DNA of 64,000 nt. It comes from an uncultured Acidobacteriota bacterium (GTDB lineage: Bacteria > Actinomycetota > Acidimicrobiia > Spongiisociales > ZC4RG35). The stretch lies in contig CAWHEU010000022.1 of NCBI GenBank assembly GCA_963828465.1, forward strand, positions 64,001 to 128,000, read 5' to 3'. The number at the start of each line of letters is the position of its first letter. Position 1 is the stretch's first letter. Below the pieces are notes generated by a model. That model was given only the letters and a program-made list of their open reading frames with translations, did no database searches and had not been told where the DNA came from. The position numbers and the translations under genes are program-made. Positions 6,745 through 51,989 of this stretch are shown piece by piece.

Positions 6745-7341
6745 CTAGACGGGGGCTGGCACCGGCTCGGGCATCAGCTCGAGCAAGTGGGTGTTCAACT
6801 GATAGAACAGGGAGGTCGGCAGCGAGCCCTCGCCGAGACGCCGGTTGATCTCCTTGAGCAACCTCAGCCACCGGGCGAAAACGTCCGCGGGCGGCACCGC
6901 ATCCGCGGCTAGATCCCGGGCGAAATCGGATATCCGACGTCGAAGATCCTCGAGCTCTGGGTCGCTCGGCTGAGCAAAAGCGGTTGGACGGAGCGACGTG
7001 CTCGTCTGGCCCACACCGGCGGTGACCGGGCGAACTGGTGAGGCTTCGATGCCCAGCGCGGCGGCGAAGGCCTTCGAGTCGGTCACGTTGAGCACCATCT
7101 CCTCGCCGTCGACCCTGATGTGAAAACCATCTGCTTGGACGACGATGTCCAGTTGCTCGAGTGGCCAGTTCGCGACGGTTCGCTCACCGGCGGTCAAGGT
7201 CATCCGCTCGTTGAGAATGTCGACCTCCACACCGAGCGGAAGACGGGTATGGCCCGGCAGGCGGAGCCTGGCGTTGAACGACGACAATTCATCCCTCCAC
7301 ATCGTCTCGGAGGGGCGGAGGCCCCAATCAGCTTGCCTCAC
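6745..7341 (-). CDS. Hypothetical protein
   Basis: 198 aa ORF filling the gap between neighbours, protein-like composition; start uncertain. Confidence 0.6.
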   Translation of the reverse strand: MRQADWGLRPSETMWRDELSSFNARLRLPGHTRLPLGVEVDILNERMTLTAGERTVANWPLEQLDIVVQADGFHIRVDGEEMVLNVTDSKAFAAALGIEASPVRPVTAGVGQTSTSLRPTAFAQPSDPELEDLRRRISDFARDLAADAVPPADVFARWLRLLKEINRRLGEGSLPTSLFYQLNTHLLELMPEPVPAPV

Positions 7342-7437
7342 GTAATCGCCCGGAGCGGGTGGATGGATACTCTTCGCAGCGAATTCCTAAGGATTTTGGC
7401 CCCAAGAGGCCATCAGACCGTCGAATACACTCGTCGG

Positions 7438-9831: not shown

Positions 9832-12007
9832 ATGTCGGGCGATCACCACGACGCCGGCGACCGCTGGACGAATCTCCTGGGCGATTTCAAACTCGGTCGG
9901 CTTCCGGCAACAGTCGGCACAGGGCTGGTGTTGGCATTGGTCAATTCTCTGCTGAGCATCGCCCTGATGTCCCTGATCTTCGACGGGGCGCTCGACGAGC
10001 GCGTTTCCGATCGGGATTGGCTTGGGATTGGTTGCGTCGGCATTGGTCGCCGTGATAGCTGCCCTCGGCAGCAGCTTCCCCGGCATGTACGCAGGCGTTC
10101 AGGACGCGAGCGCGGCGATTCTCGGGCTCAGCGCAGCGTCGATCGCAGCCACGCTCGTGGGGCCCGCTGCAATCGACACAGTGCTCGTCATGTTGGCCGT
10201 GACGTCCCTGGCCACCGGGCTGGTGTTCTTGCTCATGGGCTACTTCGCCCTCGGTGACGTCGCCAGATTCGTGCCCTTTCCAGTGATCGGGGGCCTGCTC
10301 GCCGGCACCGGCTACCTCATCCTGGTCGGGGGGATCGAGATCATGGGAGTGGAGTCTGTGAGCGATCTGATGGCCGGGAATGCTCTGGGTCTGTTCTGGC
10401 CCGGCGTTGTGCTCGCTGTCATGTTCTTCATCGCCTCCCGTCGGAGGTGGCCATCATGGGCCTACCTGGTGTTCCTGGCCGCTGGTGTCATCGGCTTTCA
10501 CGCAATCACCCGAGCTCTGGGGATCGACAAGGCCGAATCCCTCGAGAGGGGCTGGCTGCTCGGCCCTTTCCCGGAAGGCAGCATGTGGCCAGGACTCGTC
10601 GTGGACGCCCTCGGCGGCGCCGACTGGGGGGCACTCGCCGGTGAGGCTGCGGGCCTCGTCACCATCCTGCTCATCGTTCCGATAACTCTCCTTCTCTACA
10701 TCGGTGCGCTCGAGATCGAGACCAAGTCCGATGTCGACATGAACGCCGAGCTGCGGGCGACCGGCTGGGCGAATGTCGCCGCCGGCGCAGTGGGCGGTCC
10801 GCCCGGCTACATGTACCTGGCCGACACATTGATCACCCAGCGACTTGTGGGCAGACGACGGGGTCCTGCGGTTGTCGCCGCCGTCGGGATCCTGAGCGTG
10901 TTGGTGGTCGGGGGCGTCGTCCTGGAGTTCGTGCCCGAATTCGTCATCGGCGGCCTGCTCTTGTTCGTCGGAGCCGACTTTGTGGTGGAGTGGTTGTGGT
11001 CTTCCCGCCGACGGATGACACGCCTGGATTACGCCCTCATGTGGGGAATTGTGCTGGTGATCGCCACTGTCGGGTTCCTTCCCGGTGTCGCCGCCGGTCT
11101 GGTGGCGGCGATCGCCCTTTTCGTCGTCAGATACAGCCGAATCGATGTCGTCAAGCACTCCCTGACTGCCAGAGACCACCGAAGCAACATGGAGCGTTCC
11201 GAGATAGACGCCGACTATCTCCAGGAAGCGGGTGATTCGGTTCTGATCCTCCAGCTCCAGGGATTCATCTTCTTTGGCACGGCGAGCCGGATCACCCGGC
11301 ATGTCCGGACCCGCCGGGAAAGCACCGAGACGCTGCGGTTCGTCATCTTCGACTTTCGACAGGTGACCGGAATCGACTCCTCGGCGGTGGTGCTGTTCGA
11401 GAGGATCGCCCTGCTCGCCCGAGAACACGGATTGATCCTGGTGTTCACCGGGCTGAGCCCGACCCACCGGGCCCAGTTCTCCGAGCTCATGAGTGATTAT
11501 GAAGACGTGATCCGGGACGAGACCGACCTCGATCACGGGATGGCCTGGGCGGAAGACCGTCTCCTCGCCGCCGCCGGAGTGGGTGACGGGCAGCAACGGG
11601 CCCTTCCGGCCCGGCTAGCCGATGAGCTCGCCCCCTACCTCGCCAGGCGCTCGATCCCTGCCGGGAGTCAGCTAATGCGGCAGGGGGAGCCCACATCTGG
11701 CATCTTTCTCATCGTGTCCGGGCGCGTGACTGTTCTTCTCGAAGGGCGCGACGGAGAGCAGGTTCGGCTTCGTACCCTTCTCGAGGGGACCGTATTGGGC
11801 GAGATCAGCCTGTATAGAGACGAGCCGCACACCGCCACGGCGGTCACCGACACCGAGTGTGAGGTGCTGCACCTCACGCCTGAGCGATTCAATGATCTCT
11901 GTCGGGACGCGCCGGCGGTGGCTGCCGACTTCCATGCCTTCGTGGCTCGGACCCTTGCCGGTCGGGTGAGCCACGCCAACCGCGCCATCAGGGCGCTCCA
12001 GAGTTGA
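9832..12007 (+). CDS. SulP family anion transporter with STAS and cNMP-binding domains, frameshift near 10000
   Basis: RFVPFPVIGGLLAGTG, LQGFIFFGTA, DFRQVTGIDSSA, LGEISL..PHTATA; N-terminus in ORF 9832-10257, rest in 10022-12007. Confidence 0.88.
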
Positions 12008-25844: not shown

Positions 25845-28800
25845 ATGAGCGCCTCTCCTCAGCCCTACCTGCCGCGCATGGTGCGCGACTGGGACGAGGA
25901 GGCGCCCGGCCAATTGCACCAGTGTCTCGAAGGGTCGATGGTCTTCGTTGACATTTCGGGGTTCACCGCGATGTCCGAGCGACTGGCCAAGCACGGGAAG
26001 CTCGGGGCTGAGGAGCTCACCGCGGTGATCGCCGCCACCTTCCATGAGCTGCTCGCAGCCGCCTACTCCTTTGGATCCAGCCTCCTCAAATTCGGCGGAG
26101 ATGCCTTGTTGCTCTTTTTCGCCGGTGACCAGCACGCGCTTCGCAGCTGCGCCGCGGCCCGGGCTATGCAACAGCGGCTGGATGAGGTCGGCGTGTGTGT
26201 CACCAGTGCCGGCAAGGTCACGCTGCGGATGTCGGTCGGCATTCACAGCGGCATGTTCGACTTCTTCTTGGTGGGAGGGTCCCATCGAGAATTGATCGTC
26301 TCCGGCCCTGCAGCCTCTCGAACAGTTGAGATGGAGGGCGCAGCGCGAGCTGGCCAGGTCCTGATCAGCCCGGGGACCGCTTCCGCGATTCCGGCGGCGA
26401 ACAGGGGAAGGCCGTCGGGTCCCGGTGTCCTGCTCAGAGGGGCAGTGGACGTGGAGAGCAAGCCGCGAGAACACGTCGAATCGTCACCCGACGAGCTGGC
26501 TCAGTTCGTCCCGATCGGTCTTTGCCAGCTGTTGTTGAGTGGCGAGGTAGAGCCTGAACACCGACCGGCCACGGTGGCCTTTCTCCAGCATCACGGTCTC
26601 GATGATGTCATCGAGCGTGATGGTGCCGACGTGGCCGCCCAGAGGCTGGATTCCTTGATCCGTTCGGTCCAGGAGGCCGCAGACGCCCGTGCCATCACCT
26701 TCCTCGCGACTGACATCGCGACCAATGGCGGAAAGATCATCCTCACCGCCGGCGTTCCGTCGACGACCGGCCGGGATGAAGAGGAGATGTTGCTCGCACT
26801 TCGTCAGGTGATGTCGAGCGGACCTGACCTACCCACCTCGGTAGGTGTCAATTGGGGTCGGGTATTCGCCGGCGAGGTTGGCACGCCTTACCGCCGCACT
26901 TACACGGTGATGGGGGACACAGTGAACCTCGCTGCACGACTCATGGCGCGGGCGCCTGCAGGTGAGATATATGCCACATCCGAGGTGGTGACAGCTTCAC
27001 GAACCACCTTCGTGCTAAGCACCATCGAACCATTCATGGTCAAGGGGAAGAAACTCCCGGTCAACGCGGTGTCGGTTGGCGATCCGCAGGGGAGCAAGAG
27101 CCAGCGGGCAGCCGGTGGGCTCCCACTCATCGGGCGTGACCAGGAGCTGACGCTACTCACAGCCGCCTGGGAGAGGGCTCGGGCCGGCAACGGCCAAATG
27201 GTGGAGCTCGCCGCCGATGCCGGCATGGGAAAGAGTCGCCTCGTAGAGGAATTCCTGGCCACTACTCAACCGGACCGGGTGATTCACACCGAATGCCGTC
27301 TCTATCAATCGGCGACGCCGTACTTCCCATTCCGGGAGCTCCTGAGCGAGGTCTGGGGGCTCACGGGCCTCGATCCCGATGCCTCAGAGAAGGCGCTGTT
27401 TGAGCTGGTCGACACGCTGGCACCAGAGCTCGGCCCGTGGCTTTCCCTGATCGGGCTGGCGTTGGGCTTGGAGATCGCCGACTCTGTCGAGGTGTCGCAG
27501 CTAGAGGATCAGTTCCGTCCGGTGCGTGCCATGGCCGCTATCGGTTCTTTGCTCGAGGCGACGATGAAGGACCCGGTCGTGTTCGTCGTCGACGACACGC
27601 ATTGGATGGACGAGCCATCTAGGGACTTGCTGGCAAGCCTGGTCTTGGGAATGGACCGCTATCCATGGATGTTCGTGCTGACCCGGTCACTCGGTGCAGA
27701 GGGGTTTATGGCACCTGAGTCTCCGTCCGTGACCAGGGTCGAGCTCCATCCCTTGGGACTCGATGAAGCAAGAAATCTCATTTTCAGCGCCACAGAGGAA
27801 GCTCCGCTGCCCCCTCAGCAAGTGGAGCAGCTGGCCCGGCAGGCTGATGGGAACCCACTCTTCTTGGTCGAGTTGCTGCAAGCCCTACGCCATAGTGGGT
27901 CGCTCGAGGAGATCCCACAGTCCGTGGAAGCGATGATCGCGGCCCGGATCGACACCTTGCCGCTCTCTGACAGGAATCTTCTCCGCCGGCTCTCGGTCCT
28001 TGGCAATGGGTTCCAACTGGAGCAGGTGTCGGCTGTGCTCGGAATGGACGGGGAGATCCCGCAGGATCAGGGGCGCTCGGTGCGAAGGCTCTCCGCATTT
28101 CTCAACGTGGACAAGTCGGGATGGGTCGATTTCCAGCACTCGCTGATCCGGGACGTCGCCTACGACGGGCTTCCCTACAAGACTCGCGAACGGCTCCATG
28201 CCCAGGTGGGCGACGCGACCTTCGCCACTTGCCGGGGTCGGCCCGAGGAGTTTGCCGAGATCCTCTCGCTGCACTACTTCTATGCCAAAAAGTGGAGCCG
28301 CACCTGGCGTTTCTCCCGCATGGCGGGCGACCGCGCTCGGGAGATCTACGCCAATCACGAGGCGGCCGTCTTCTACGAGCGGGCCCTCACTTCCTCCCGG
28401 CATCTCGACTGGGTAACGCATGCCGACCGGGCCGACGTGCTCACGGCCATGGCCTCGGTCCTGTACGAGGCCGGCTCGTTCGACCGGACCATTACGTCCC
28501 TGCGCGAAGCCACCCGGCTCATCGACGACGATCCGGTTGCCCGGGCCGACCTGCATCTCTCATTGGCCCGTTCCTATCAACGCAAAGGCGCCCTATCGCG
28601 AGCCCTGCGTGAATCAGCCCTGGGATTGAAATTGGTGGAGAGGAGCGATCTTCCCGAGGCCCGGAGGGCAACCGCCAGACTTCGGGCAGTTCGCGCAGGC
28701 CTCTTCGCCGATCAGTTCCGACCCCGGATGGCACTTCAGGTTGGTCTGAAGGCGGTCGAGGAGGCAGAGGCCAGCGGGGAGATGGACGCCCTGGCGCGGG

Positions 28801-29639
28801 CCTACACCAAGATCGACGAGGCCTACCAGATCCTCGGTCTCCGCGACCAGGCCGTCCACGAGGAAAGGGCTCTTGAGATCTTCGAGGAGCTCGGCGATCT
28901 GTCCGGCATATTGCTCCTCGCCATCAACCTCGGGGTTCAGGCCTATGCCGATGGTCGCTGGGATGACGCCATCACCATGTACGCCAAGGCTCAGGAGGTG
29001 AGCCGGCGCAGCGGCAACAGCTCAGCCGAAGGTGCGGCCGCGGCCAATCTGGGCGAGGTCCTGATCAGTCGGGGAAGACTCAATGAGGCAGAGACGGTCC
29101 TGAACGAGGCGAGACGGGTGTTGCGCGGTCAGAAAGTGGTCGGGTTCGCCCTCTTCGCCGAGACCCAACTGGCGCGGCTCGTGATGGAGCGAGGCGAGAA
29201 TCAACTGGCGGCGGACGCCCTGAAACAGGTCATCGACGAGGCCAATCGCATAGGACAGCCGTTCTTCGCAGTCGATGCCGCGGTCCATCTCGCCGATGCG
29301 CTGACACGGTCAGGAGACCCAGGACGCGCTCTCGAGGTCATCGATGTCGCCAAAGATCTGGCCGGCGAGGATGCCGCCCTGTACGAAGTGCCCCTGGAAC
29401 GATTGCGGGCTGGGGCTCTAATCGCCATGGGCCGATCCGACGAGGCACTTGGTCATGTGGAGCCGGCCCTTGCGAGCGCTCGTGAGCAGCGACTCGTCTA
29501 CGAAGAAGCCCTGCTCTTATGCCTCAAGGCAGAGACAGGCACCGACAACGGCGCTGCCTTCGAGGAGGCGACCCGCCTCCTCGAAGACCTAGGAGCTTCT
29601 CCGCCTTACGTCCACCGTTTGCCATCGCCGACGTTGTAG
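25845..29639 (+). CDS. Tandem class III cyclase + AAA/STAND ATPase + TPR protein (soluble adenylyl cyclase-like)
   Basis: FVDISGFTAMSERL, KFGGDALL, YTVMGDTVNLAARLM, LIGRDQEL, GMGKSRL, DDTHWMD, GNPLFL, TPR-like tail; TAATCT 7 nt before ATG. Confidence 0.92.
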   Translation: MSASPQPYLPRMVRDWDEEAPGQLHQCLEGSMVFVDISGFTAMSERLAKHGKLGAEELTAVIAATFHELLAAAYSFGSSLLKFGGDALLLFFAGDQHALRSCAAARAMQQRLDEVGVCVTSAGKVTLRMSVGIHSGMFDFFLVGGSHRELIVSGPAASRTVEMEGAARAGQVLISPGTASAIPAANRGRPSGPGVLLRGAVDVESKPREHVESSPDELAQFVPIGLCQLLLSGEVEPEHRPATVAFLQHHGLDDVIERDGADVAAQRLDSLIRSVQEAADARAITFLATDIATNGGKIILTAGVPSTTGRDEEEMLLALRQVMSSGPDLPTSVGVNWGRVFAGEVGTPYRRTYTVMGDTVNLAARLMARAPAGEIYATSEVVTASRTTFVLSTIEPFMVKGKKLPVNAVSVGDPQGSKSQRAAGGLPLIGRDQELTLLTAAWERARAGNGQMVELAADAGMGKSRLVEEFLATTQPDRVIHTECRLYQSATPYFPFRELLSEVWGLTGLDPDASEKALFELVDTLAPELGPWLSLIGLALGLEIADSVEVSQLEDQFRPVRAMAAIGSLLEATMKDPVVFVVDDTHWMDEPSRDLLASLVLGMDRYPWMFVLTRSLGAEGFMAPESPSVTRVELHPLGLDEARNLIFSATEEAPLPPQQVEQLARQADGNPLFLVELLQALRHSGSLEEIPQSVEAMIAARIDTLPLSDRNLLRRLSVLGNGFQLEQVSAVLGMDGEIPQDQGRSVRRLSAFLNVDKSGWVDFQHSLIRDVAYDGLPYKTRERLHAQVGDATFATCRGRPEEFAEILSLHYFYAKKWSRTWRFSRMAGDRAREIYANHEAAVFYERALTSSRHLDWVTHADRADVLTAMASVLYEAGSFDRTITSLREATRLIDDDPVARADLHLSLARSYQRKGALSRALRESALGLKLVERSDLPEARRATARLRAVRAGLFADQFRPRMALQVGLKAVEEAEASGEMDALARAYTKIDEAYQILGLRDQAVHEERALEIFEELGDLSGILLLAINLGVQAYADGRWDDAITMYAKAQEVSRRSGNSSAEGAAAANLGEVLISRGRLNEAETVLNEARRVLRGQKVVGFALFAETQLARLVMERGENQLAADALKQVIDEANRIGQPFFAVDAAVHLADALTRSGDPGRALEVIDVAKDLAGEDAALYEVPLERLRAGALIAMGRSDEALGHVEPALASAREQRLVYEEALLLCLKAETGTDNGAAFEEATRLLEDLGASPPYVHRLPSPTL

Positions 29640-30934: not shown

Positions 30935-31065
30935 CTTGCCTCCCATTTGCTCATGCGTGCATTGAGGGCGAGTGCGCATGACAGCCCCTGCCCCTGAGCC
31001 TCCGCCCGTTCGCAAGACCTTACCCACCGACACGCGCTTGCGTGCAAGTTCGATGGCGAGGCGCG

Positions 31066-31776
31066 ATGATGAATGACATGACAGGAGCCGAGAGCCCTGC
31101 CGAGGCCGCCGACCTCTACATCCTCCCTCTAGACCAGTTCACCGCAGCTCGAGATGCGCTGGCAGAACGACTCAAAGCAGAGGGTGATCCCGATGAGGCG
31201 AAGCGGGTAGCCAAGCTGCGCAAGCCCTCAGTGGCGGCCTGGGCTCTGAACCGGGCGGCAAGGAGCCATCCCGAACTGGTCAGCCGGCTTGTCGACGGTC
31301 ACAAGATGTTGCGGCAGGCGGGATCGAGACAGGCGGTCGAGGAGGCCTCGGTGACGCGCCGGCAGGCGGTCGCGGCTCTGACTGATGCCGCCATGAACGA
31401 GCTGGACAATGGATCACTCCAGACGCGGGACCGCGTCAATCGGACGTTGCTGGCAGTCGCCACCGATGCCGAAGGTGAGGCCGATCTCGTCACAGGCACC
31501 CTGGTCCGGGAGCTGGAGCCGTCCGGGGGCGGTTGGGGTGAGATGGAGCTGCCGCCTGTGCCGGAGCCAGATCCCGCCGAACAAGATGCTCGGGTAGCAG
31601 AGGAAGCACGTGAGCGCGCCCGTGCGCTCGAGATCGAAGCCGCCGACGCCGAATCACAGGTCGAGACCGCCAAGCAGGCCCTCGCCGAGGCGAGACGTCG
31701 AGCCAAACAGGCTCGGTCGGCTGCCGACAAAGCAGCGGGTGAGGCCCGGCAGGCGGAGAAGAAAACGGCGAGCTGA
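31066..31776 (+). CDS. Conserved actinobacterial hypothetical helical/coiled-coil protein
   Basis: LY.LPLDQFTAARDALA...VAKLRKPSVAAWALN pattern; Ala/Glu/Arg-rich tail; start uncertain. Confidence 0.78.
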   Translation: MMNDMTGAESPAEAADLYILPLDQFTAARDALAERLKAEGDPDEAKRVAKLRKPSVAAWALNRAARSHPELVSRLVDGHKMLRQAGSRQAVEEASVTRRQAVAALTDAAMNELDNGSLQTRDRVNRTLLAVATDAEGEADLVTGTLVRELEPSGGGWGEMELPPVPEPDPAEQDARVAEEARERARALEIEAADAESQVETAKQALAEARRRAKQARSAADKAAGEARQAEKKTAS

Positions 31777-31832
31777 GGCCTGGGGGTGTTCCCCGGTTGA
31801 CATTTCGGCCGGCGGTCGATACTCACATCCGG

Positions 31833-32876
31833 GTGGGACGCGTCTCCAATGAGAAGGACCTCGAGTTGGCACTCGAGGTGGTCACCGAGGGCCGTAGAGG
31901 GCTCCGCCGACTCGGGGGTGATTTCTCGCTTGAAACGGCGGGCGCCGGTGTGGCCGAGGAGGCCGAAACGGTCCGTACCCGGTCGCGTGACTGGGTGCAT
32001 GGCTCAGGTGTCCAGGGTTTGGGGATCGGAGACAAGCTCACCCACGGCGAGCCCACGGGTGAGTTGGCGCTGCGGGTCTATGTCGAGAAGAAAAAGGCAA
32101 AGGCGAAGGTCGCCAACCCGGTGCCCAAGGTCGTGGTCGTCCCCGGTGTTGGGGAGCGGATCACTGATGTCATCGAATTGGGGCGGGTTGTCCCCGAGCT
32201 GTTCACCGAGCGGGTCCGGCCCGCGATGCCGGGATCCGGTCTCGGCCACACCGCGGTCACGGTGGGCACTTTCGGCTGCCTGGTGCGCAAGAAGGGGGAC
32301 GCGACCGGCATCTACGTATTGAGCAACGCTCATGTCCTCGCCAACGAAGGTCTGGCGGCGCCGGGCGACGGGATCGTCCAGCCCGGCTCGCTCGACGGGG
32401 GCACGTCTGCCGGGGACTCATTCGCGCGCCTCACCGATTTCGTGCCATTCGAGTTCACCGATACGAGCTTCCCGAATCTTGTCGATGCCGCAATCGCCAA
32501 GGTTCGAAGGCGCACCTGGGTCGGTCCGAAGCTGCGCATCCTCGACATAGCTCCGGCCGGGGTGAGCAAGACTGTTCGCAGGGGGATGCACATCAAGAAG
32601 GTGGGACGGACCACGGATTACACCACCGGCGTCATAACCGACGTTCACCTCCGCCTTGCCCTCAAATATCACCGGCCGTCGGGCTCGGGCCGGGCTCGGG
32701 TCGGGTTCAGAGACCAGGTCCTATGCACCCGCTACAGCGCCGGTGGTGACAGCGGCTCGGTGATCTTGAACAACAACGACAGGGTCGTCGGTCTCCACTT
32801 TGCGGGCGCTACCTCGGGGAGCGTCTTCAATCGGATTACCCATGTTCTCGAATTGCTCGACATCGAGGTGGTGTGA
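31833..32876 (+). CDS. Trypsin-like (Nal1-type) serine protease, no signal peptide
   Basis: GTFGCLV, LSNAHVL (His), VDAAIA (Asp), KVGRTT..TTG, GGDSGS (Ser), VVGLHFAG; start uncertain. Confidence 0.88.
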   Translation: MGRVSNEKDLELALEVVTEGRRGLRRLGGDFSLETAGAGVAEEAETVRTRSRDWVHGSGVQGLGIGDKLTHGEPTGELALRVYVEKKKAKAKVANPVPKVVVVPGVGERITDVIELGRVVPELFTERVRPAMPGSGLGHTAVTVGTFGCLVRKKGDATGIYVLSNAHVLANEGLAAPGDGIVQPGSLDGGTSAGDSFARLTDFVPFEFTDTSFPNLVDAAIAKVRRRTWVGPKLRILDIAPAGVSKTVRRGMHIKKVGRTTDYTTGVITDVHLRLALKYHRPSGSGRARVGFRDQVLCTRYSAGGDSGSVILNNNDRVVGLHFAGATSGSVFNRITHVLELLDIEVV

Positions 32877-33175
32877 TGGCCAGCCGCAATCATGTCCAGC
32901 GCGCCATCGAGTTGTACGAAGAAGAGCTTGCCCGATACCCGAATGTGACCGGGATAGGAGTCGTCCCGGTTACCGATGGCACTGATAGCCCGGCCGACCT
33001 CGCCGTCGCGGTCTATGTCACCAAGAAGGTGCCTCGCGACGAGTTGAACGCCGGTGATCGCATACCGCGCACGCTCGAGATCCCGAGCCGTGATGGGGCC
33101 CAGAACGTTCCGACGAGGGTCATCGCGACAGGGGAGTTCGCCCTCGAGGATCAATTCGACATCGAGCCTGCATAG
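32873..33175 (+). CDS. Small protein resembling the N-terminal (pro)domain of the upstream protease
   Basis: PNVTGIGV...LAVAVYVTKK...IP...TRVIATG vs protease GVQGLGIG...LALRVYVEKK...VP...TDVIELG; start overlaps the upstream stop. Confidence 0.8.
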   Translation: MMASRNHVQRAIELYEEELARYPNVTGIGVVPVTDGTDSPADLAVAVYVTKKVPRDELNAGDRIPRTLEIPSRDGAQNVPTRVIATGEFALEDQFDIEPA

Positions 33176-33197
33176 GCATCGAGGAAGGAGGGCTGTC

Positions 33198-34160
33198 ATG
33201 CCCGACGGTAATGAGGTCGTCGACAAGGACACACCGGTATCCAGCTTCGACGTGGGGGAGGAGTCGATTTCCGACGAGGGTTCGACCGGCGAGGACGATC
33301 AGGTCGAGAAGACTCCGCGCAGCGGGTTCGAGAAGATCGAGGGCTATCGGCCCCCGACACCCCAAACTCACAGTGACTTCTCGCCGGAGTCGGTTGGGGA
33401 GGTGTTGTCGATCCCTGACGAGACCACACAACTACCCGATATCGGCGAGGCGTCGTTTGGACCGCCCGACGCCCGGGCCGAGACGGTTCACGGCGCCGAT
33501 GATCGGTTTCAGATCACCAACACTTCCGCCTACCCGTGGCGTGCCCATGCTTCCCTGCGAATCACTGCGGCGGACAACTCGGTGTGGATCGGAACCGGAT
33601 GGTTCGTGGGGCCGAGGCTGTTGGTTACCGCCGGTCACGTCGTCTACATCAAGAACAGCGGTGTCCCCGGACGTGATGGCTGGGTGCAGAAGATCGTCGT
33701 CATGCCCGGCCGAAATGGAGGGACGCTTCCGTTCGGGTCAGCGACGACCTCCAAATTCTGGTCCGTGGTGGGCTGGGCCACCGATGGCGATGGCGAGTAC
33801 GACTACGGCGCCATCGTCTTGGGCGAGTCGCTTGGCGACAGGACTGGCTGGTTGGGATTTGGCAACTGGCCAAGTCTCGATGGGGTCCACGCCAACATCT
33901 CGGGGTATCCGGGTGACAAGCCGGCGGGCACCCAGTGGTATGCGGCCAGGACGATCGACTCCGCGAGCACCCGCAAGGTGTTCTACGACATCGACACCGC
34001 CGGCGGCCAGAGTGGATCCGCCGTCTACCGGTTCGCCAACGGGTCCAGATACGGGATCGCCATCCATGCCTACGGGGGCGCCACGGTGAATTCCGGGACC
34101 CGGATCAGCCAACCGGTCTTCAACAACATCAAAGCCTGGAAGGAGGCGTCCCAGGCGTGA
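33198..34160 (+). CDS. V8/glutamyl endopeptidase-like serine protease, no signal peptide
   Basis: RBS GGAAGGAGG; VHGADDR..ITNTSAYPWR, GTGWFVG, VTAGH, DYGAI, SGYPGDK, DTAGGQSGSAV, IAIH. Confidence 0.9.
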   Translation: MPDGNEVVDKDTPVSSFDVGEESISDEGSTGEDDQVEKTPRSGFEKIEGYRPPTPQTHSDFSPESVGEVLSIPDETTQLPDIGEASFGPPDARAETVHGADDRFQITNTSAYPWRAHASLRITAADNSVWIGTGWFVGPRLLVTAGHVVYIKNSGVPGRDGWVQKIVVMPGRNGGTLPFGSATTSKFWSVVGWATDGDGEYDYGAIVLGESLGDRTGWLGFGNWPSLDGVHANISGYPGDKPAGTQWYAARTIDSASTRKVFYDIDTAGGQSGSAVYRFANGSRYGIAIHAYGGATVNSGTRISQPVFNNIKAWKEASQA

Positions 34161-34426
34161 ACGACGGAGGCACGCGGATTGACGGACGTTCCCATCTCGT
34201 CGACGACAGCCCGGTGATCGAAGCACGGGTGTTCTTCGGCACGGCTCCGGTGCCGATGCCCGACATCGCCACTCTCACCGATGAGGACGGTCGGTTCTCG
34301 CTATACGCGCCGGCCCCAGGCAACTACGAGATCGTCTGCCACGCCGATGGTCTCGACCCGGCCTCCGTTGCAGTCGACGTCGATGGAATGTCCGACAGCA
34401 TCGGGGTGGACATCGAGATGGGTTGA
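34157..34426 (+). CDS. Small carboxypeptidase-regulatory-like (prealbumin-fold) domain protein
   Basis: GTGA overlap; PVIEARV...LTDEDGRFSL..PAPGNYEI..HADG. Confidence 0.75.
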   Translation: MNDGGTRIDGRSHLVDDSPVIEARVFFGTAPVPMPDIATLTDEDGRFSLYAPAPGNYEIVCHADGLDPASVAVDVDGMSDSIGVDIEMG

Positions 34427-36460: not shown

Positions 36461-37060
36461 GTGGATCGGGATTCACTCAGGGACCGTGTGTTCATCCCCG
36501 TGGTCATCGACGCCGAGCGGGTGGTCGACGGGGAGGAGATGGTTCGGGTCACCTATTTCGCCGTCGCCACGGAAGCCCCGGCAGCAGTGTGGGAGGTGGA
36601 GCTTCCAGCGGTGGCGCAGCTCCACGGGATCGGAGCGCTCGGTCTTGCCGGCGTGATCTACAGCGCGATCCGCGAGAACCCGACTTCGGGGCCTGAAGCG
36701 GTCGAGTTCGACCTGTTCATGGATGCCGACGACGTCGCTGCCATCTTCGCCCTCGAGGAGTCGGACATGCCCCTGACGGTGCAAGTCGAGGACGTGTGGA
36801 TGCCCCGCGCCTGGTTCGACGACGAGACGATGCGGGGCGATGTCTACCGGGTAGACCTCGATCCCTTCCAGTCGGCTTATCGGTACACGTCGGGGACGAT
36901 CGGGCTGGATCACCTGACAAATGTTGACGTCACCGGGCAGGTGATCAGCTCGCCGGTGGAGACCGTGGCCTTGGCCCAGTGGTCACAGGACCAGATCGAG
37001 GCCACGAGGAGGGCCTTCCCCGACAAAGAGGTCAAGCTGAGGTGGAGAGACGATGGCTGA
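36461..37060 (+). CDS. Acidic hypothetical protein coupled to the downstream MBL hydrolase
   Basis: Non-overlapping 3' part of ORF 35930-37060; 8-nt overlap with the next gene; start inferred. Confidence 0.68.
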   Translation: MDRDSLRDRVFIPVVIDAERVVDGEEMVRVTYFAVATEAPAAVWEVELPAVAQLHGIGALGLAGVIYSAIRENPTSGPEAVEFDLFMDADDVAAIFALEESDMPLTVQVEDVWMPRAWFDDETMRGDVYRVDLDPFQSAYRYTSGTIGLDHLTNVDVTGQVISSPVETVALAQWSQDQIEATRRAFPDKEVKLRWRDDG

Positions 37061-37916
37061 GCTGGCGGTGACCATCATCGATGTCGGATGGGGCGATTCG
37101 ATCATGGTCGAGTCACGAGACGATGTCGGCGACCGTCGCTTCGGTCTGATCGACTGCAACGACTATGAGCGCCAGCGCACCGCCTTACCGTTCGTCAAGC
37201 GCTATTTCGAACGGATCGGCCGTAACTGGCAGGGGACCCAGCACAACTTCGAATGGGTCCTTCTAACCCATGGCCACGCCGACCACGCCCGTGGCCTGAA
37301 GGAGATGATGAACACTTTCGGGACCACCCATTTCTGGTACCCGAAGTCGGTCGCCTCGACCACCTACGGAGTTCTACTCGACTTCGCCAATCGGTCGAAT
37401 CGGGTACTCCATCATCAGGCTGTGGACGAGACCAAGCTCCTCGAGGCGCCGGAGGTCACCTTTCACTGCGGGATGCGCATCCTGTGGCCCAACTTCGACC
37501 AGATCGACACCAATAACGAGAACAACAACTCGGTGGTCCTGGCACTGACTCTCGGTGAGGTCACCATCGTGCTCACCGGCGACGCGGAAGCCGAGAACTG
37601 GCCGCAGATCGTGGCTCGGCTACCGGTCCAGACCACGTATCTCCAGGTGCCGCATCACGGTGGGCGCAACGGGCTCTTCGACCCCAATGACGCGACACCG
37701 TGGCTCGATCACCTCAATCCTCGCCACACGCGGTTGGTGATGAGCAGCCACGTCGTTCCCCACGGCCATCCCCATCCCGACGTGGTCACCGAGCTCTCGA
37801 ACCGCCGCTTCGTCTCCTACCGGACCGATCGCAACTATCACCTCACGCTGAGCACGACAGGTGAGAAGGTCACGGTGGGATACACCCACGTCAGCGGGCG
37901 CCTGCCTCGGGGATGA
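37053..37916 (+). CDS. Stand-alone ComEC/Rec2-type metallo-beta-lactamase fold hydrolase
   Basis: IDVGWGDS, THGHADHARG, NENNNSVV, LTGDAE, VPHHGG, HGHPH, RTD. Confidence 0.88.
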   Translation: MAELAVTIIDVGWGDSIMVESRDDVGDRRFGLIDCNDYERQRTALPFVKRYFERIGRNWQGTQHNFEWVLLTHGHADHARGLKEMMNTFGTTHFWYPKSVASTTYGVLLDFANRSNRVLHHQAVDETKLLEAPEVTFHCGMRILWPNFDQIDTNNENNNSVVLALTLGEVTIVLTGDAEAENWPQIVARLPVQTTYLQVPHHGGRNGLFDPNDATPWLDHLNPRHTRLVMSSHVVPHGHPHPDVVTELSNRRFVSYRTDRNYHLTLSTTGEKVTVGYTHVSGRLPRG

Positions 37917-48516: not shown

Positions 48517-50025
48517 GTGCTCCTGGCCGATCTCGTCAATGTCTCCGCCGCGGTATCCGCGACGAGGGCTCGATCCAAGAAGATCGAGTTGCTCGCCGCG
48601 ATGCTTCGACGGCTCGCCCCCGATGAAACGGCGCCGGCCGTCTCCTATCTGAGTGGCAGGCCACGACAAGACCGGCTCGGAGTGGGATGGGCGACGGTCT
48701 ACTCCGTCGAAGCCGCCGCGGCGGAGGAGGCGTCCCTGGAGATACTCGAAGTCGATACAACTCTGGAGAGCCTGGCGGGCATGTCCGGCCCCGGATCCAA
48801 GAAGCTGCGGGAGGACCTCCTCGCCGGGATGTTCGGCCGGGCTACGGAGGCCGAGCAGCGGTTCCTGCGCGATCTCATCGTGCGCAACCTCCGGCAGGGG
48901 GCCCTTGAAGGAGTGATGGCGGACGCCGTCGCAGTTGCCCTGGGAGTGACGCCTGATCGGGTGCGTCGGGCCACCATGCTCGAGGGCGATCTGGTCACCG
49001 TTGCCTCACGGGCCCTGGCAGAAGGTCCCGACGCATTGCGGACATCGTCGCTCGGTTTGTTCACTCCGGTGCAGCCGATGCTTGCCAAAACTGCCGCCAG
49101 CGCCGGTGATGCAGTGAATGGCCTGGGCCGGGCTTTCGTGGAGTGGAAGCTCGACGGCGCCCGCATCCAGGTGCACCGGCGAGGGACTGAGGTGGCGGTC
49201 TATACCCGGAACTTGAGGGACATCACCAGTGGAGTCCCCGAGGTGGTCGCCTCAGTGCTCGAGTACCCGGCCTCCTCGTTCATCCTCGACGGCGAGGCAT
49301 TGCTCTTCGGTCCTTCAGGCCCGGAGCAGTTCCAGGACTCGATGAGCAGGTTCGGGGCTGAGGTCTCTGATCAGGCTCCGCCCCTGCGCGCCTTCTATTT
49401 CGATTGTCTCCATCTCGACGGGGTAGATCTAATCGACCAGTCGCTGCTCGAGCGTCGTGGGGCGCTGACCGGTGCGGTACCCGGGGAGTCTCTCGTGGGT
49501 TCGGTCCTCACCGATGATCCCGAAGTGGCGGATCGTTTCTTCGACGATTCGGTGGCCGCCGGCTACGAGGGTGTAGTGGTCAAGGACCCAAACCAGCCCT
49601 ACGAGGCCGGGCGAAGAGGATCGGGCTGGCTGAAGGTGAAACCAACCCACACGCTCGACCTTCTCATCCTGGCCGCAGAGTGGGGATCGGGGCGCAGAGA
49701 AGGTTGGCTGTCCAATCTCCATCTCGGTGCCGCAGACGGCAAGGGCGGGTACATCATGCTCGGTAAGACCTTCAAGGGCCTTACCGACGAAATGCTGGCA
49801 TGGCAGACCGAGCGATTTCTCGAGATCGAAGATCGCCGCACCCGGAACACCGTGTTTGTGAAGCCTGAGATCGTCTACGAGATCGCCTTCGACGGCGTCC
49901 AACGCAGCACCCGCTACCCGGGCGGTGTGGCCCTCCGTTTTGCCCGGGTCAAGCGATATCGAGAAGACAAAGGGGCCCGAGACACCGACACCATCGAGAC
50001 GGTTCGGAGCTTCGCCCGCGGCTAG
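48517..50025 (+). CDS. ligB: ATP-dependent DNA ligase (LigB type)
   Basis: PVQPMLA, EWKLDGARIQVH, EGVVVK, WLKVKP, GKTFKGLTD, ALRFARV. Confidence 0.93.
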   Translation: MLLADLVNVSAAVSATRARSKKIELLAAMLRRLAPDETAPAVSYLSGRPRQDRLGVGWATVYSVEAAAAEEASLEILEVDTTLESLAGMSGPGSKKLREDLLAGMFGRATEAEQRFLRDLIVRNLRQGALEGVMADAVAVALGVTPDRVRRATMLEGDLVTVASRALAEGPDALRTSSLGLFTPVQPMLAKTAASAGDAVNGLGRAFVEWKLDGARIQVHRRGTEVAVYTRNLRDITSGVPEVVASVLEYPASSFILDGEALLFGPSGPEQFQDSMSRFGAEVSDQAPPLRAFYFDCLHLDGVDLIDQSLLERRGALTGAVPGESLVGSVLTDDPEVADRFFDDSVAAGYEGVVVKDPNQPYEAGRRGSGWLKVKPTHTLDLLILAAEWGSGRREGWLSNLHLGAADGKGGYIMLGKTFKGLTDEMLAWQTERFLEIEDRRTRNTVFVKPEIVYEIAFDGVQRSTRYPGGVALRFARVKRYREDKGARDTDTIETVRSFARG

Positions 50026-51989
50026 GCCGGGGTCTTCCAGTCGATGGTGTGGAGCTTCACCGCGCCATCGATCCCTTTGAGCTCGACGTCCCTTCCCTCG
50101 GAGACGCCGTATGAGATCGCATCGATTGTCTGTAGCGCGGCCTCGGAGATGACGATCTCGTCGGCATCCGCCGCCGCGCTGACCCTGGCAGCCCTATGCA
50201 CTCCGAGTCCCCGGTAGTCACTGCCATCCGTGGTGGCCTCGTCGGTGTGAAGCCCGATTCGGACCGAAGGGGCGAACCCCTGGTCGCGTGAGTGTTCGGA
50301 GAGGCGACGCTGGATGGTCACCGCCGCCTCCACGGCATCGGTTCCGCTGTCGAAGCTGACGAAGAATCCATCGCCGGTGTGGCTCACCTCGGTGCCGTGA
50401 TGCTCGACGAAGGCGGCCCGCACGATGCGATCATGGGAGGCGAGAAGCGATTCCCATTTCGCATCCCCGATCAGGCTCACCAGATCGGTGGAGGTGACGA
50501 TGTCGGTGAACATGAAGGTCTTGGTGACTCGAGATCGATCTGGTGCTCCGTCGATGGCGTAGAGGATCTCATCCACCCGCCGCAGATCGAGGGCCGCTCC
50601 CAGCTTCTCGAACACCGAACGAGCAGCGCCCAGCTCCAATCGAGCCTGAGCCTCGTCGTCGGCCGCGACGTGGGCCTGACCCAACAACACTCGAGCTCGA
50701 GCACCCTCGTAGGGAAAGCCGATCTCCCGCCAGACCCGCCCCGCCCGGGTCAATTCGCGGATCGCGGCTGGGTGGTCGCCCTCTTCCAGCAGGACCGAGC
50801 CGCGAGCGGTGAGGGCCATCGCTTGGAATGCCGGTCGTTGGTACTCCTCGGCGAGTCGCTCCAACTCCTCAGTTGCGGTTCGGGCGGTGTCGGTGTCGCC
50901 CCTGGCCAGGGCCACCTCGACCTGAGCCGGGAGCAGGCGGGCCCTCATCAGCAAGTCGGTGGCCGGACCCGCCTCGTCGTCGGAGAGTGCGATCATCAGT
51001 GCCCGGGCCGCTTCGTCGGCCTGACCCCTGGCCAGCATCAACAAGGCAAACCCGGGTTGGGGAACGACACCGTGCTCGTAGGCGATGTTGAAAGCGGCTT
51101 CCGCCCCGGCGAGATCGCCCATATGGAGGCGGATCTCGCCCACCTCATATTGTCCGTGGCCGACCCCGTCGAGCATGTGATAGCGCTCCAACTCCTGGCA
51201 TGCGCTGAGCGCCTCCTGCTCGGCCTCGGTCCAATTCCCATGAAGACGCTTCAACTCGGCGCGATGGACCCGGCATACCCCTGAATAGCCCCCGACCGAA
51301 TGGCGGGTCATCCATCTGTCTGCTTCTTCAGTCCATTCCCCGGCGCGTCGGAAATCGCCAACGTCGCGGCAGGCCGAGATCGTGACGCAGTAGACGTCGC
51401 TGGCCGACCGCAATCCGGCATTTCCGGACAAGGCCACGGAGGTTGCTTCGTCGATCAGGGCCAGCCCCTCCATCCAATCGCCCCTGGCCAGCATGGCGTA
51501 GCCCTTGAACACTTGCGCTTGAGACTCGGCATCGCTGCTTCCGGTCCGGCGGGCAATCTCCAGAGCCTCGTCGGCCAGGACTATGCCCTCGTCCAGATCT
51601 CGACGCATCGCGATGGCTTCGTAGACCTCCATCACTTTCAGCGACGCATGGGCGGTCGATTCGGGTTGACCTTCCAACAGCCTGACCGCCCTTGCCCGCC
51701 AACCGTTGGCCACCGAGCCTGCAAGCCTCCGAGCCGCCAGATAGGCGAGGAGAACGGCGACCCTGGCGGCATCCATTGGCATGTCGGCGCCGACATAGCC
51801 GTTGAAGGCCCGTTCCAAAGCGTCGACGGACTCGTCGGGGTGGGCGGTCCACCATGCGGCGTCTGCGAGTAGCTCGAGGTCCGCCGGTGACAACGCCTCT
51901 TCGCCATCGGCTTCGGTCAGCGTTTTCCGCGCTTCTTCCCAGGCCTCGCGGCCGGCTGCTGCCCTTCCCGTCTCCAGCGTTAGCACCAC
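50022..51989 (-). CDS. TPR-like N-terminus + C-terminal class III cyclase domain protein
   Basis: TFMFTDIVTST, TGDGFF, VRIGLH, DYRGLGVHRAARV; TAGTCT 6 nt before GTG. Confidence 0.9.
   Translation of the reverse strand: MVLTLETGRAAAGREAWEEARKTLTEADGEEALSPADLELLADAAWWTAHPDESVDALERAFNGYVGADMPMDAARVAVLLAYLAARRLAGSVANGWRARAVRLLEGQPESTAHASLKVMEVYEAIAMRRDLDEGIVLADEALEIARRTGSSDAESQAQVFKGYAMLARGDWMEGLALIDEATSVALSGNAGLRSASDVYCVTISACRDVGDFRRAGEWTEEADRWMTRHSVGGYSGVCRVHRAELKRLHGNWTEAEQEALSACQELERYHMLDGVGHGQYEVGEIRLHMGDLAGAEAAFNIAYEHGVVPQPGFALLMLARGQADEAARALMIALSDDEAGPATDLLMRARLLPAQVEVALARGDTDTARTATEELERLAEEYQRPAFQAMALTARGSVLLEEGDHPAAIRELTRAGRVWREIGFPYEGARARVLLGQAHVAADDEAQARLELGAARSVFEKLGAALDLRRVDEILYAIDGAPDRSRVTKTFMFTDIVTSTDLVSLIGDAKWESLLASHDRIVRAAFVEHHGTEVSHTGDGFFVSFDSGTDAVEAAVTIQRRLSEHSRDQGFAPSVRIGLHTDEATTDGSDYRGLGVHRAARVSAAADADEIVISEAALQTIDAISYGVSEGRDVELKGIDGAVKLHTIDWKTPA

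What the first reader, a model, noticed from the sequence alone, without database searches (positions are those of the whole stretch)
31833..34426. Four-gene protease operon without signal peptides, including a stand-alone prodomain copy
Seen: a Nal1-type trypsin-like protease, a 100-aa protein that aligns by eye with that protease's own N-terminal domain, a V8-like protease with an acidic N-terminal extension ending AE/TVHGADDR, and a lone carboxypeptidase-regulatory-like domain. Two junctions overlap start and stop codons. Both catalytic triads are intact and no gene has a signal peptide. Established: V8-type proteases are usually secreted zymogens, and cytoplasmic trypsin-like proteases occur in bacterial conflict systems. 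Inference: an intracellular zymogen cascade with a trans-acting inhibitor or chaperone; no effector is evident in the operon.
Basis: partly seen in the sequence, partly recalled or inferred. Interest (0 to 1): 0.74.

Follow-up and report, generated by a model that had tools for sequence, protein, structure and literature searches.

The report
Cytoplasmic NAL1-like and V8-like protease operon
Four same-strand genes encode two serine proteases without export signals, each followed by a small partner protein; the first pair is an unstudied bacterial counterpart of the rice cage protease NAL1, and its small partner is predicted to sit in the protease's active site.

Summary
A is a NAL1-type serine protease by sequence profile and predicted fold. 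B (99 aa) is a paralogue of A's own N-terminal domain (hhalign 98.3%, E 1.2e-14). That domain matches NAL1's ATP-binding/oligomerisation domain, not a known prodomain. C is a V8/GluBI-type glutamyl endopeptidase with a 95-residue acidic extension. The extension ends at an invariant Glu, exactly where the mature Bacillus intermedius enzyme begins. D is a small CarboxypepD_reg-like beta-sandwich. No export signal was seen in any of the four or in the sampled relatives.

The operon is composite. A-B is a conserved pair in many phyla: 56 of the 58 closest loci. C-D joins it in only 19 of 80 loci, mostly titled Actinomycetota. A complex model puts B's C-terminal tail on A's catalytic triad (score 0.61, best control 0.00); a pass may reflect likeness to solved NAL1.

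Best reading: a cytoplasmic gated protease (A) with a pseudo-substrate partner (B), joined to a self-activating zymogen (C) and its partner (D). The cascade and any defence role remain untested: PADLOC gave no significant hit, and the region is not a defence island. It is a new variant of a known kind, of moderate interest.

The parts
31833..32876 (+). Gene A: NAL1-type serine protease, 347 aa. Layout: N-terminal helices (about 1-55), ATP-binding-domain-like module (about 58-126), chymotrypsin-fold domain with H167/D218/S307. An alternative TTG start at 31797 would add 12 aa.
   Evidence: Profile against PDB hits 9 NAL1 sequences at E 1.4e-4 to 1.4e-3. AF2 model pLDDT 75, pTM 0.79. Best Foldseek PDB hits are full-length rice NAL1, E 6e-14, TM 0.59 over about 350 columns.
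32876..33175 (+). Gene B: 99-aa stand-alone paralogue of A's ATP-binding-domain-like module (helix 4-19, four strands, C-terminal tail ...GEFALEDQF...). It is translationally coupled to A.
   Evidence: hhalign 98.3%, E 1.2e-14. AF2 pLDDT 80. Best PDB fold hits are NAL1, E 2e-3, TMq 0.56-0.60. B profile against PDB hits only NAL1, E 0.045-0.08. Conserved next to A. Complex model.
33182..33192 (+). Shine-Dalgarno-like AGGAAGGAGGG, 5 nt before the ATG of C
   Evidence: Read.
33198..34160 (+). Gene C: V8/GluBI-type glutamyl endopeptidase precursor, 320 aa, triad H147/D202/S272
   Evidence: phmmer against PDB: 1P3C glutamyl endopeptidase E 1.6e-19; V8 protease 1QY6 E 1.4e-8. 3020 relatives with E<=0.001 among 4636 candidates, some source-named 'V8-like Glu-specific endopeptidase'. 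Invariant columns.
33198..33482 (+). Acidic N-terminal extension of C (residues 1-95), ending at invariant Glu95. Contains the invariant motif IGEASFGPP...AE before TVHGxDDR.
   Evidence: 24 D+E against 6 K+R. E84, A85, S86, G88 and E95 invariant in 17 sequences. C V97 aligns with residue 2 of the mature 1P3C chain, so T96 corresponds to residue 1.
34157..34426 (+). Gene D: 89-aa CarboxypepD_reg-like beta-sandwich; its start overlaps the stop of C
   Evidence: Pfam PF13620 E 2.1e-5, below cut-off. Atlas nearest clusters (score 0.97-0.98) are 88-92-aa stand-alone PF13620 proteins. A D-like ORF follows C in 18 of 19 C-bearing loci.

Best explanation
The cluster joins two cytoplasmic protease modules.

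Module 1 (A+B) is a bacterial two-gene form of the NAL1 protease.
- A carries an ATP-binding-domain-like module and a chymotrypsin-fold domain. By analogy with NAL1, it probably works as a self-compartmentalising oligomer (inferred).
- B is a duplicated copy of A's N-terminal module. It has lost two of the three conserved nucleotide-ligand positions.
- B is made together with A. It most likely docks on A's protease domain with its C-terminal tail (consensus xVxLE) lying in the catalytic cleft. There it would act as a pseudo-substrate or inhibitory subunit, or as a first substrate, that gates A. This rests on a model and is not shown.

Module 2 (C+D) is a Glu-specific endopeptidase made as an inactive precursor.
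- Cutting after invariant Glu95 would create the Thr96 N-terminus that corresponds to residue 1 of the mature Bacillus enzyme. C can therefore activate itself in trans once triggered, or be activated by another protease (inferred).
- D is a co-translated small beta-sandwich, probably a binding partner of C: an inhibitor or an adaptor (inferred from position only).

In the lineage of this window the two modules form one operon. They probably act in one pathway of regulated intracellular proteolysis. Whether A activates C is open.
For: Shown by tools:
- Gene structure and coupling.
- A is NAL1-like by profile and by fold over its full length.
- B is paralogous to A's N-domain and NAL1-like in fold.
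- A B-like gene lies directly after A in 56 of 58 loci L001-L058, spanning titles from Acidobacteriota/Thermoanaerobaculia, Planctomycetota, Chloroflexota, Gemmatimonadota, Verrucomicrobiota, Nitrospirales, Pseudomonadota and Actinomycetota. The gap is <=70 nt in 50 of the 53 downstream cases listed.
- A-B fusion proteins exist: P0244 (A-like 41% identical, then B-like, E 9e-13) and P0321.
- Stand-alone B relatives: 2590 representative clusters at E<=1e-3; 140 of the best 150 are <=140 aa.
- Complex model: score 0.61, best of 3 controls 0.00. The mark was reached by 51 of 78 solved complexes and 2 of 108 mismatched pairs. The runs agree in at least 91% of contacts and the partner pLDDT is at least 80. 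The interface includes A 167-168, 218 and 302-307 (the triad) and 322-331, against B 25-31, 45, 47 and 84-94; S307 pairs with B L90.
- Nucleotide ligands: A K68, K87 and D112 are invariant and align with NAL1 R120, K139 and D166 (alignment; ligand list from PMC12012508 section 5). In B only K51 is kept (33 of 36). The D112-equivalent position is D in 2 of 36 and R/K in 22 of 36.
- C.
- No export signals.
- Other peptidase genes without an N-terminal hydrophobic stretch sit on the same strand beside A-B in 28 of the 58 close loci: 19 with C, 7 with a PepT-like M20, 2 with an S8 subtilase.
Against: - The complex pass may come from likeness to solved NAL1 oligomers, whose ATP-binding domain contacts a neighbour's protease domain (PMC12012508). 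It was folded from single sequences, because the alignment-based job failed twice. It is a model, not a measurement.
- Pfam family scores are below the gathering cut-offs, and pairwise B-A BLAST is not significant.
- The residue mapping to NAL1 rests on a weak alignment (domain i-Evalue 0.68).
- A's first 55 residues are predicted helical, unlike the NAL1 N-terminal strand that builds the hexamer, so a cage is unproven.
- C-D is linked to A-B in only 19 of 80 loci. In the A tree that trait needs two changes (0 of 200 bootstrap trees with one), so the functional link between the modules may be loose.
- V8-type enzymes are normally secreted. Absence of a signal was judged by hydropathy only.
- No substrate or trigger is known.
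Confidence: 0.45

Rival explanations
1. Conflict or abortive-infection system. A/B would be a gated sensor-protease that, on a trigger such as phage infection, releases a toxic effector. Here the effector would be the cytoplasmic Glu-specific protease C, held inactive by its extension and by D.
For: - Longer relatives of A are mostly fusions to a non-specific DNA/RNA endonuclease: 103 of the 120 listed long relatives carry PF01223. The three fetched examples keep the DRGH motif and have no hydrophobic N-terminus, by my reading.
- Distant A-type loci have a B-like gene, then A, then an EndoU nuclease (L079) or a Macro domain (L061, L071).
- The distribution is patchy and neighbours vary between phyla.
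- A ComEC-type MBL protein that matches defence MBL models lies 2.6 kb downstream: PDC-M48B 2.6e-13, RTasMBL 9e-9.
- Protease-activated effectors are an established defence logic (PMC12799240, abstract and passages seen).
Against: - PADLOC: 0 families for A, B and D; for C only E 0.0022 and 0.023 over about 30 residues around the catalytic Ser. The nuclease fusions also match nothing in PADLOC.
- The window carries metabolic, LigD, Lon and cyclase genes, no mobile-element genes, and no tRNA.
- A relatives cluster largely by phylum in the tree.
- Almost nothing in phages: 3 weak matches in 50,697 records for A, none for B.
- The nuclease fusions are only about 30% identical to A.
- The MBL gene is separated from the operon by an opposite-strand oxidoreductase. 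Among the 12 closest loci that have sequence beyond the oxidoreductase it is present in L001, L003, L005, L008 and L009, and absent in L006, L007, L027 and L043.
Confidence: 0.2
2. Two unrelated modules that merely lie side by side. A-B and C-D would each work alone, for example in general cytoplasmic protein and peptide turnover, with no cross-talk.
For: - A-B occurs without C-D in 37 of the 56 close loci that have B.
- C relatives at <=66% identity come from other phyla (source names include a cyanobacterium, Zetaproteobacteria and Anaerolineae). This is a weak lead only.
- Elsewhere, neighbours of A-B include a PepT-like M20, an amidohydrolase, an amino-acid permease and a peptide-binding SBP.
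Against: - The A-B-C order is kept in 19 of 19 C-bearing loci, from titles as far apart as Acidimicrobiia, Nitriliruptorales, Egicoccus and Jiangellaceae, with short gaps and a 22-nt B-C spacer here.
- Every close-subfamily locus titled Actinomycetota or one of its sub-groups (11 loci: L002, L004, L009, L011, L037, L041, L045, L046, L049, L050, L051) carries C.
Confidence: 0.2
3. Exported digestive or peptide-maturation proteases. The proteins would leave the cell by a non-classical route, or would trim ribosomal peptide natural products.
For: - V8-type glutamyl endopeptidases are classically secreted zymogens (established knowledge).
- Distant relatives sit in peptide-modification clusters. 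A C-like gene lies among radical SAM genes next to an M23 peptidase on a Tropicibacter plasmid. An A-like gene follows a radical SAM gene and a HEXXH peptide-modification gene on a Rhizobium plasmid. A RamC-like lanthipeptide synthetase lies upstream of the A-like gene in L053.
Against: - No signal peptide in the window's proteins or in 0 of 20 A, 0 of 17 C and 35 of 36 B relatives.
- No precursor peptide, radical SAM, LanKC or transporter genes in the window or in the close loci examined.
- The plasmid relatives are only 34-44% identical.
Confidence: 0.08

Closest known systems
Rice NARROW LEAF 1 (NAL1) serine protease (PDB 7Y77, 8HAU, 8PMM and others; PMC12012508)
   Same: - Domain order: an ATP-binding-domain-like module followed by a chymotrypsin-fold domain with a His/Asp/Ser triad.
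- NAL1 is the best PDB match for A over its full length and for B.
- Three nucleotide-ligand positions are conserved in A.
- Neither protein has a signal peptide.
   Different: - Identity is only about 18%, and Pfam NAL1 models score below cut-off.
- A's N-terminal 55 residues are predicted helical, not the strand-bearing NAL1 N-terminal domain.
- NAL1 has no separate ATP-binding-domain-only subunit. Here a stand-alone paralogue (B) is encoded next to the protease.
- Oligomeric state and ATP binding of A are untested.
V8 / GluBI-type glutamyl endopeptidases (Bacillus intermedius 1P3C; Staphylococcus aureus V8 1QY6)
   Same: - C aligns over the whole catalytic domain (E 1.6e-19 and 1.4e-8) with the triad in place.
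- C's extension ends exactly where the mature 1P3C chain begins.
   Different: - C has no signal peptide.
- It carries a 95-residue acidic extension with its own invariant motifs.
- It is followed by a small beta-sandwich gene.
Trypsin-MBL nuclease-protease modules of Hachiman, AVAST, Lamassu and DRT (PMC12799240; bioRxiv 10.1101/2025.09.03.673762, abstract only)
   Same: - A cytoplasmic trypsin-fold protease paired with a latent enzyme.
- A ComEC-type MBL protein matching those defence MBL models is present 2.6 kb away.
   Different: - In those systems the MBL gene sits immediately upstream of a protease that is fused to a defence enzyme. Here the MBL gene is downstream, behind an opposite-strand gene, and neither protease is fused to anything.
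- A, B and D have no PADLOC hit; C has two non-significant ones (E 0.0022 and 0.023).
Co-encoded protease inhibitors and in-trans prodomains (staphostatins after staphopain genes; the alpha-lytic protease pro region and subtilisin I9 propeptide, whose C-terminal tail lies in the active site). Recalled from memory, not from any call.
   Same: - A small protein without a signal peptide is encoded right after its protease.
- The complex model puts B's C-terminal tail in A's catalytic cleft.
- A B-like domain occupies the N-terminus of an S8 subtilase in P0358.
   Different: - There is no sequence or fold relation to those inhibitors.
- B is a paralogue of a domain that stays attached in the mature protease.
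- Inhibition has not been measured.

Membership tests
NAL1-type serine protease (Pfam NAL1_N + Nal1_C) | Chymotrypsin-fold domain with a His-Asp-Ser triad | tested here: met
   H167, D218 and S307 invariant in 20 sequences. Trypsin PF00089 scores 26.8 bits, above its 20.6 cut-off.
NAL1-type serine protease (Pfam NAL1_N + Nal1_C) | ATP-binding-domain-like module N-terminal to the protease domain, and full-length structural likeness | tested here: met
   Profile hit to 9 NAL1 sequences covering A 57-166. Foldseek E 6e-14, TM 0.59 over about 350 columns, while other S1 proteases match only the protease domain.
NAL1-type serine protease (Pfam NAL1_N + Nal1_C) | Score above Pfam gathering cut-offs | tested here: not met
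   Nal1_C 16.3 bits against 26.1 for A; NAL1_N 16.1 against 27 for B. Some fused or tandem relatives do pass NAL1_N: P0321 at 45.3 bits, P0305 at 64.7 bits.
NAL1-type serine protease (Pfam NAL1_N + Nal1_C) | ATP ligands (NAL1 R120, R122, K123, K139, D166) | tested here: inconclusive
   A K68, K87 and D112 align with R120, K139 and D166 and are invariant. The R122 and K123 positions are not basic. The alignment is weak and no binding test was possible.
NAL1-type serine protease (Pfam NAL1_N + Nal1_C) | Hexameric cage (two trimers) required for activity | not tested
A's N-terminus is predicted helical, unlike the NAL1 strand used for hexamer formation.
V8-like Glu-specific endopeptidase (S1B) | Catalytic-domain homology with the triad | tested here: met
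   1P3C E 1.6e-19 over C 97-305. H147, D202 and S272 invariant.
V8-like Glu-specific endopeptidase (S1B) | Propeptide whose removal creates the mature N-terminus | tested here: inconclusive
   The boundary Glu95|Thr96 aligns with residue 1 of mature 1P3C and is invariant. Processing itself is not testable here.
V8-like Glu-specific endopeptidase (S1B) | Signal peptide / secretion | tested here: not met
   No hydrophobic N-terminal stretch in C or in 0 of 17 relatives. Judged by hydropathy only.
V8-like Glu-specific endopeptidase (S1B) | Cleavage after Glu | not testable with these tools
   Needs an enzyme assay.
CarboxypepD_reg domain (PF13620) | Pfam match and beta-sandwich fold | tested here: inconclusive
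   25.2 bits against a cut-off of 32.3. All listed Atlas neighbours carry PF13620, scores 0.95-0.98.
Known anti-phage systems (PADLOC-DB v2) | A significant match to any component model | tested here: not met
   A, B and D: 0 families. C: E 0.0022 and 0.023 over about 30 residues.
Trypsin-MBL nuclease-protease module | MBL nuclease gene immediately upstream of a protease fused to a defence enzyme | tested here: not met
   The MBL gene (37053-37916) is 2.6 kb downstream, beyond an opposite-strand gene. A and C are unfused.

The most novel reading that the evidence does not exclude
A+B would be the minimal two-component form of an ATP-gated NAL1-type protease that bacteria and archaea use as a general switch for latent, dangerous enzymes. 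B plugs the catalytic cleft until a signal removes it. The freed protease then unleashes a fused or neighbouring effector: a non-specific nuclease in the widespread roughly 620-aa fusions, EndoU or Macro proteins in other loci, and here the cytoplasmic Glu-specific protease C, held by its acidic extension and by D. That would make this operon a protease-to-protease death or defence cascade. It would also give plant NAL1 a prokaryotic ancestry in conflict systems.
Probability: 0.15. Interest if true: 0.8.

Novelty: new variant of a known kind. Interest (0 to 1): 0.58.

Why it matters
NAL1 is a much-studied rice yield gene. Its protease has an unusual ATP-binding domain and a cage architecture. 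I found no paper on bacterial counterparts in three full-text searches (listings and abstracts only).

This window shows that a NAL1-like protease is widespread in bacteria. There it is nearly always paired with a free-standing copy of its own ATP-binding-like domain, and that copy is predicted to occupy the catalytic cleft. This offers a simple, testable model for how this protease class is gated. It also provides a small prokaryotic system for structural work on NAL1-type enzymes.

The attached glutamyl endopeptidase has no signal peptide and a conserved Glu-bounded extension. It is a candidate intracellular zymogen from a family usually thought of as secreted. The many protease-nuclease fusions among relatives hint at a role in programmed self-damage or defence. 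If confirmed, that would add a new protease family to bacterial immunity.

Tried and rejected
- **Defence libraries.** PADLOC on A-D, the upstream genes, the Thermoanaerobaculia neighbours and the nuclease fusions gave nothing significant.
- **NCBIfam** gave no family for A-D.
- **Tyrosinase link.** Tyrosinase genes neighbour A-B in 7 loci and a fusion relative on a Rhizobium plasmid. Six of the 7 carry lipoprotein-type or hydrophobic N-termini (L039 does not), and six lie on the opposite strand. I dropped them as clients.
- **MBL link.** The Thermoanaerobaculia MBL neighbour is unrelated to the window's MBL and has a lipoprotein signal. The window's ComEC-type MBL is not kept with the operon in all close relatives. 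I kept it only as a side note.
- **Peptide natural-product role.** Seen only around distant relatives.
- **Phage origin.** Essentially no matches.
- **RNA elements, tRNAs, promoter and terminator scans.** Nothing useful.
- **Upstream 244-aa gene (31042-31776).** No Pfam family; Atlas gives only unnamed Actinomycetota clusters. It is kept only in the closest relatives, so it is not counted as part of the unit.
- **Complex job with alignments A1+A3.** It failed twice on the server. The answered job used single sequences.


Full report
**What is there.** On the + strand of a 63% GC window, four genes follow each other.
- A: 31833-32876, 347 aa.
- B: 32876-33175, 99 aa.
- C: 33198-34160, 320 aa.
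- D: 34157-34426, 89 aa.

The A stop shares a base with the B ATG. The C stop overlaps the D GTG. B and C are 22 nt apart, with a strong Shine-Dalgarno-like run before C. Third-position GC is 0.78 for the A and C frames, as for the other genes of the window. Each protein has many conserved relatives, so these are real genes. No Rfam family or tRNA lies in the window.

**Protein A.** Pfam gives only general trypsin matches and a sub-threshold Nal1_C hit.
- A profile of 20 relatives finds the rice NAL1 protease in the PDB: 9 of the 15 distinct sequences, E 1.4e-4 to 1.4e-3.
- The AF2 model (pLDDT 75, pTM 0.79) matches NAL1 over its whole length: E 6e-14, TM 0.59, about 350 columns. Alpha-lytic and streptogrisin proteases match only the catalytic domain.
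- H167, D218 and S307 are invariant.

The NAL1 paper (PMC12012508; passages and section 5 read) describes three parts: an N-terminal domain, an ATP-binding domain (aa 89-172) and the protease domain. Contacts between the ATP-binding domain and a neighbour's protease domain build trimers. Only the hexamer is active. Through the alignment, A's invariant K68, K87 and D112 fall on the NAL1 ATP ligands R120, K139 and D166. This mapping rests on a weak alignment.

**Protein B.** Pairwise BLAST against A is not significant.
- The B family profile against the A N-domain profile gives 98.3% probability, E 1.2e-14, with B 22-95 aligned to A 58-126.
- The B profile also hits inside A in most loci.
- B's AF2 model (pLDDT 80) and its sequence profile find only NAL1 in the PDB.

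B is therefore a free copy of the ATP-binding-like module. It keeps K51 (33 of 36 relatives). The position of A's D112 is D in only 2 of 36 and R/K in 22 of 36. The positions of A's K68 are basic in at most 5 of 36.

**Conservation of A-B.** A scan of one genome per species with the A alignment found 212 relatives, of which 80 loci were kept. By tblastn and HMM search:
- A B-like gene lies directly after A in 56 of the 58 loci L001-L058. The exceptions are L030 and L057.
- These loci span many phyla.
- A B-like gene lies directly before A in 5 of the 22 more distant loci (L061, L062, L068, L071, L079).

Against 1.84 billion representatives, the B profile finds 2590 clusters at E<=1e-3. Of the best 150, 140 are <=140 aa. 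The rest include A-B fusions (P0244, P0321), tandem B domains, and a B-like domain fused to an S8 subtilase (P0358).

**Conservation of C-D.** C occurs in 19 of the 80 loci, always in the order A-B-C. A D-like ORF follows C in 18 of those 19. L051 has none, L001's copy is split between two frames, and L004 is cut.

Eleven of these 19 loci have titles in Actinomycetota (Acidimicrobiia, Nitriliruptorales, Egicoccus, Jiangellaceae and others). Eight are titled 'uncultured Acidobacteriota', although their A proteins are 82-95% identical to the window's. I left that label conflict unresolved.

In a careful maximum-likelihood tree of 75 A sequences, the C-bearing rows need two changes of state (0 of 200 bootstrap trees with one).

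**Other neighbours of A-B** differ between phyla:
- a PepT-like M20 peptidase plus a TPR protein in Thermoanaerobaculia;
- S8 subtilases in L012 and L040;
- amidohydrolase and ornithine cyclodeaminase after D in Acidimicrobiaceae;
- many unrelated genes elsewhere.

**Protein C.** The best solved relative is the Bacillus intermedius glutamyl endopeptidase 1P3C (E 1.6e-19), followed by V8 protease. C's V97 aligns with residue 2 of the mature chain, so T96 corresponds to residue 1, directly after Glu95. In 17 relatives from several phyla, E84, A85, S86, G88, E95, V97, G99, D101, R103 and the triad are invariant. None has a hydrophobic N-terminus. The family is large: 3020 proteins at E<=0.001 among 4636 candidates, and some sources name them V8-like Glu-specific endopeptidase.

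From memory, not from any call: in this enzyme class the new N-terminal amino group helps form the Glu-binding pocket. That would make the extension a true activation peptide.

**Protein D.** It has a sub-threshold CarboxypepD_reg match. Its Atlas neighbours are stand-alone 88-92-aa PF13620 proteins in several phyla. PDB sequence hits are uninformative.

**Does B bind A?** The alignment-based complex job failed twice. The single-sequence job gave score 0.61 with best of 3 controls 0.00.
- That mark was reached by 51 of 78 solved complexes and 2 of 108 mismatched pairs.
- The runs agree in at least 91% of contacts, and the partner pLDDT is at least 80.
- The confident interface holds A residues 167-168, 218 and 302-307 (the triad), 269-277 and 322-331.
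- On B it holds strands 25-31, 45 and 47 and the tail 84-94. S307 pairs with B L90.

The tail carries the family motif xVxLE (E91 in 28 of 36). A related oligomer (NAL1) is solved, so the pass may reflect that likeness. It supports binding but does not show it. The A-B fusions and the near-universal adjacency point the same way.

**Context and defence.** PADLOC has no model for A, B or D and only marginal hits for C. The window is ordinary chromosome: dehydrogenases, LigD, Lon, several adenylate cyclases, and no mobile-element genes. Phage genomes hold almost nothing similar.

On the other hand, 103 of the 120 listed long relatives of A are fusions to a non-specific endonuclease (PF01223). The three sequences I read have no hydrophobic N-terminus. 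Some distant loci place EndoU or Macro genes after the protease. A ComEC-type MBL protein that matches defence MBL models lies 2.6 kb downstream, but it is not consistently linked to the operon. A conflict role is therefore possible but unsupported for this operon.

**Verdict.**
- B as a trans-acting plug of A, and C as a zymogen, are the best readings.
- The 'prodomain' label, the generality of the four-gene unit, and the cascade are not established.

The A-B pair is a new bacterial variant of the NAL1 protease type. I saw no description of it in the papers searched.

Noticed in passing
window 37053-37916 (+), with a small ORF at about 36563-37060 overlapping its start: A stand-alone ComEC/Rec2-type MBL-fold protein (TIGR00361 C-terminal part, E 2e-19). 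It matches the PADLOC defence MBL models PDC-M48B (2.6e-13), an LmuA-associated model (3e-9), RTasMBL (9e-9) and Avs1a (2e-3), and NCBIfam '6A-MBL' (4e-8). No protease or defence enzyme is directly adjacent. The small upstream ORF matches nothing.
   Followed up: partly
relatives of A (e.g. P0432, P0435, P0406); plasmid loci L083 and L084: A large family of proteins about 610-640 aa long joins a NAL1-like protease (with its ATP-binding-like module) to a C-terminal DNA/RNA non-specific endonuclease (DRGH motif), with no signal peptide. Source names include Streptomyces, Rhodococcus, cyanobacteria, Nitrospira and ammonia-oxidising archaea. Neither these fusions nor the window's A protein match PADLOC.
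   Followed up: partly
relatives of A (P0391, P0394, P0398): Some long A relatives carry intein/homing-endonuclease domains (PF14528, PF14890) inside a NAL1-like protease.
   Followed up: no
plasmid collection: Distant A-like proteases (about 32% identity) occur in many copies per record (up to 17-25 places) on plasmids of Clostridium botulinum and C. novyi. The records were not fetched.
   Followed up: no
L079 7242-7799; L061 3957-4523; L071 6977-7522; L053 2692-5478: In the distant A subfamily, the order is a B-like gene, then the protease, then an EndoU nuclease (L079) or a Macro-domain protein (L061, L071). In L053 a RamC-like lanthipeptide synthetase lies directly upstream of the protease.
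   Followed up: partly
P0358; L012 7088-9146: A B-like domain is fused to the N-terminus of an S8 subtilase that lacks a signal peptide (P0358). In L012 the B gene is followed, with a 40-nt overlap in another frame, by such a subtilase.
   Followed up: partly
window 25845-29639 (+), 7120-8400 (+), 50022-51989 (-), 10022-12007 (+), 1205-3853 (-): The window holds three adenylate/guanylate-cyclase-domain proteins, one a 1264-aa cyclase-AAA-TPR protein just upstream of the locus. It also holds a cNMP-binding SulP transporter and an NB-ARC STAND protein.
   Followed up: no
loci L001, L003, L005-L008, L027, L043: Record titles call these bins 'uncultured Acidobacteriota'. Yet their A proteins are 82-95% identical to the window's, as are those of bins titled Actinomycetota/Acidimicrobiia (86-93%), and they nest among them in the tree. 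One of the two labels is probably wrong.
   Followed up: no
L001 8326-8593: The D gene of this close relative is split between two reading frames, an apparent frameshift.
   Followed up: no
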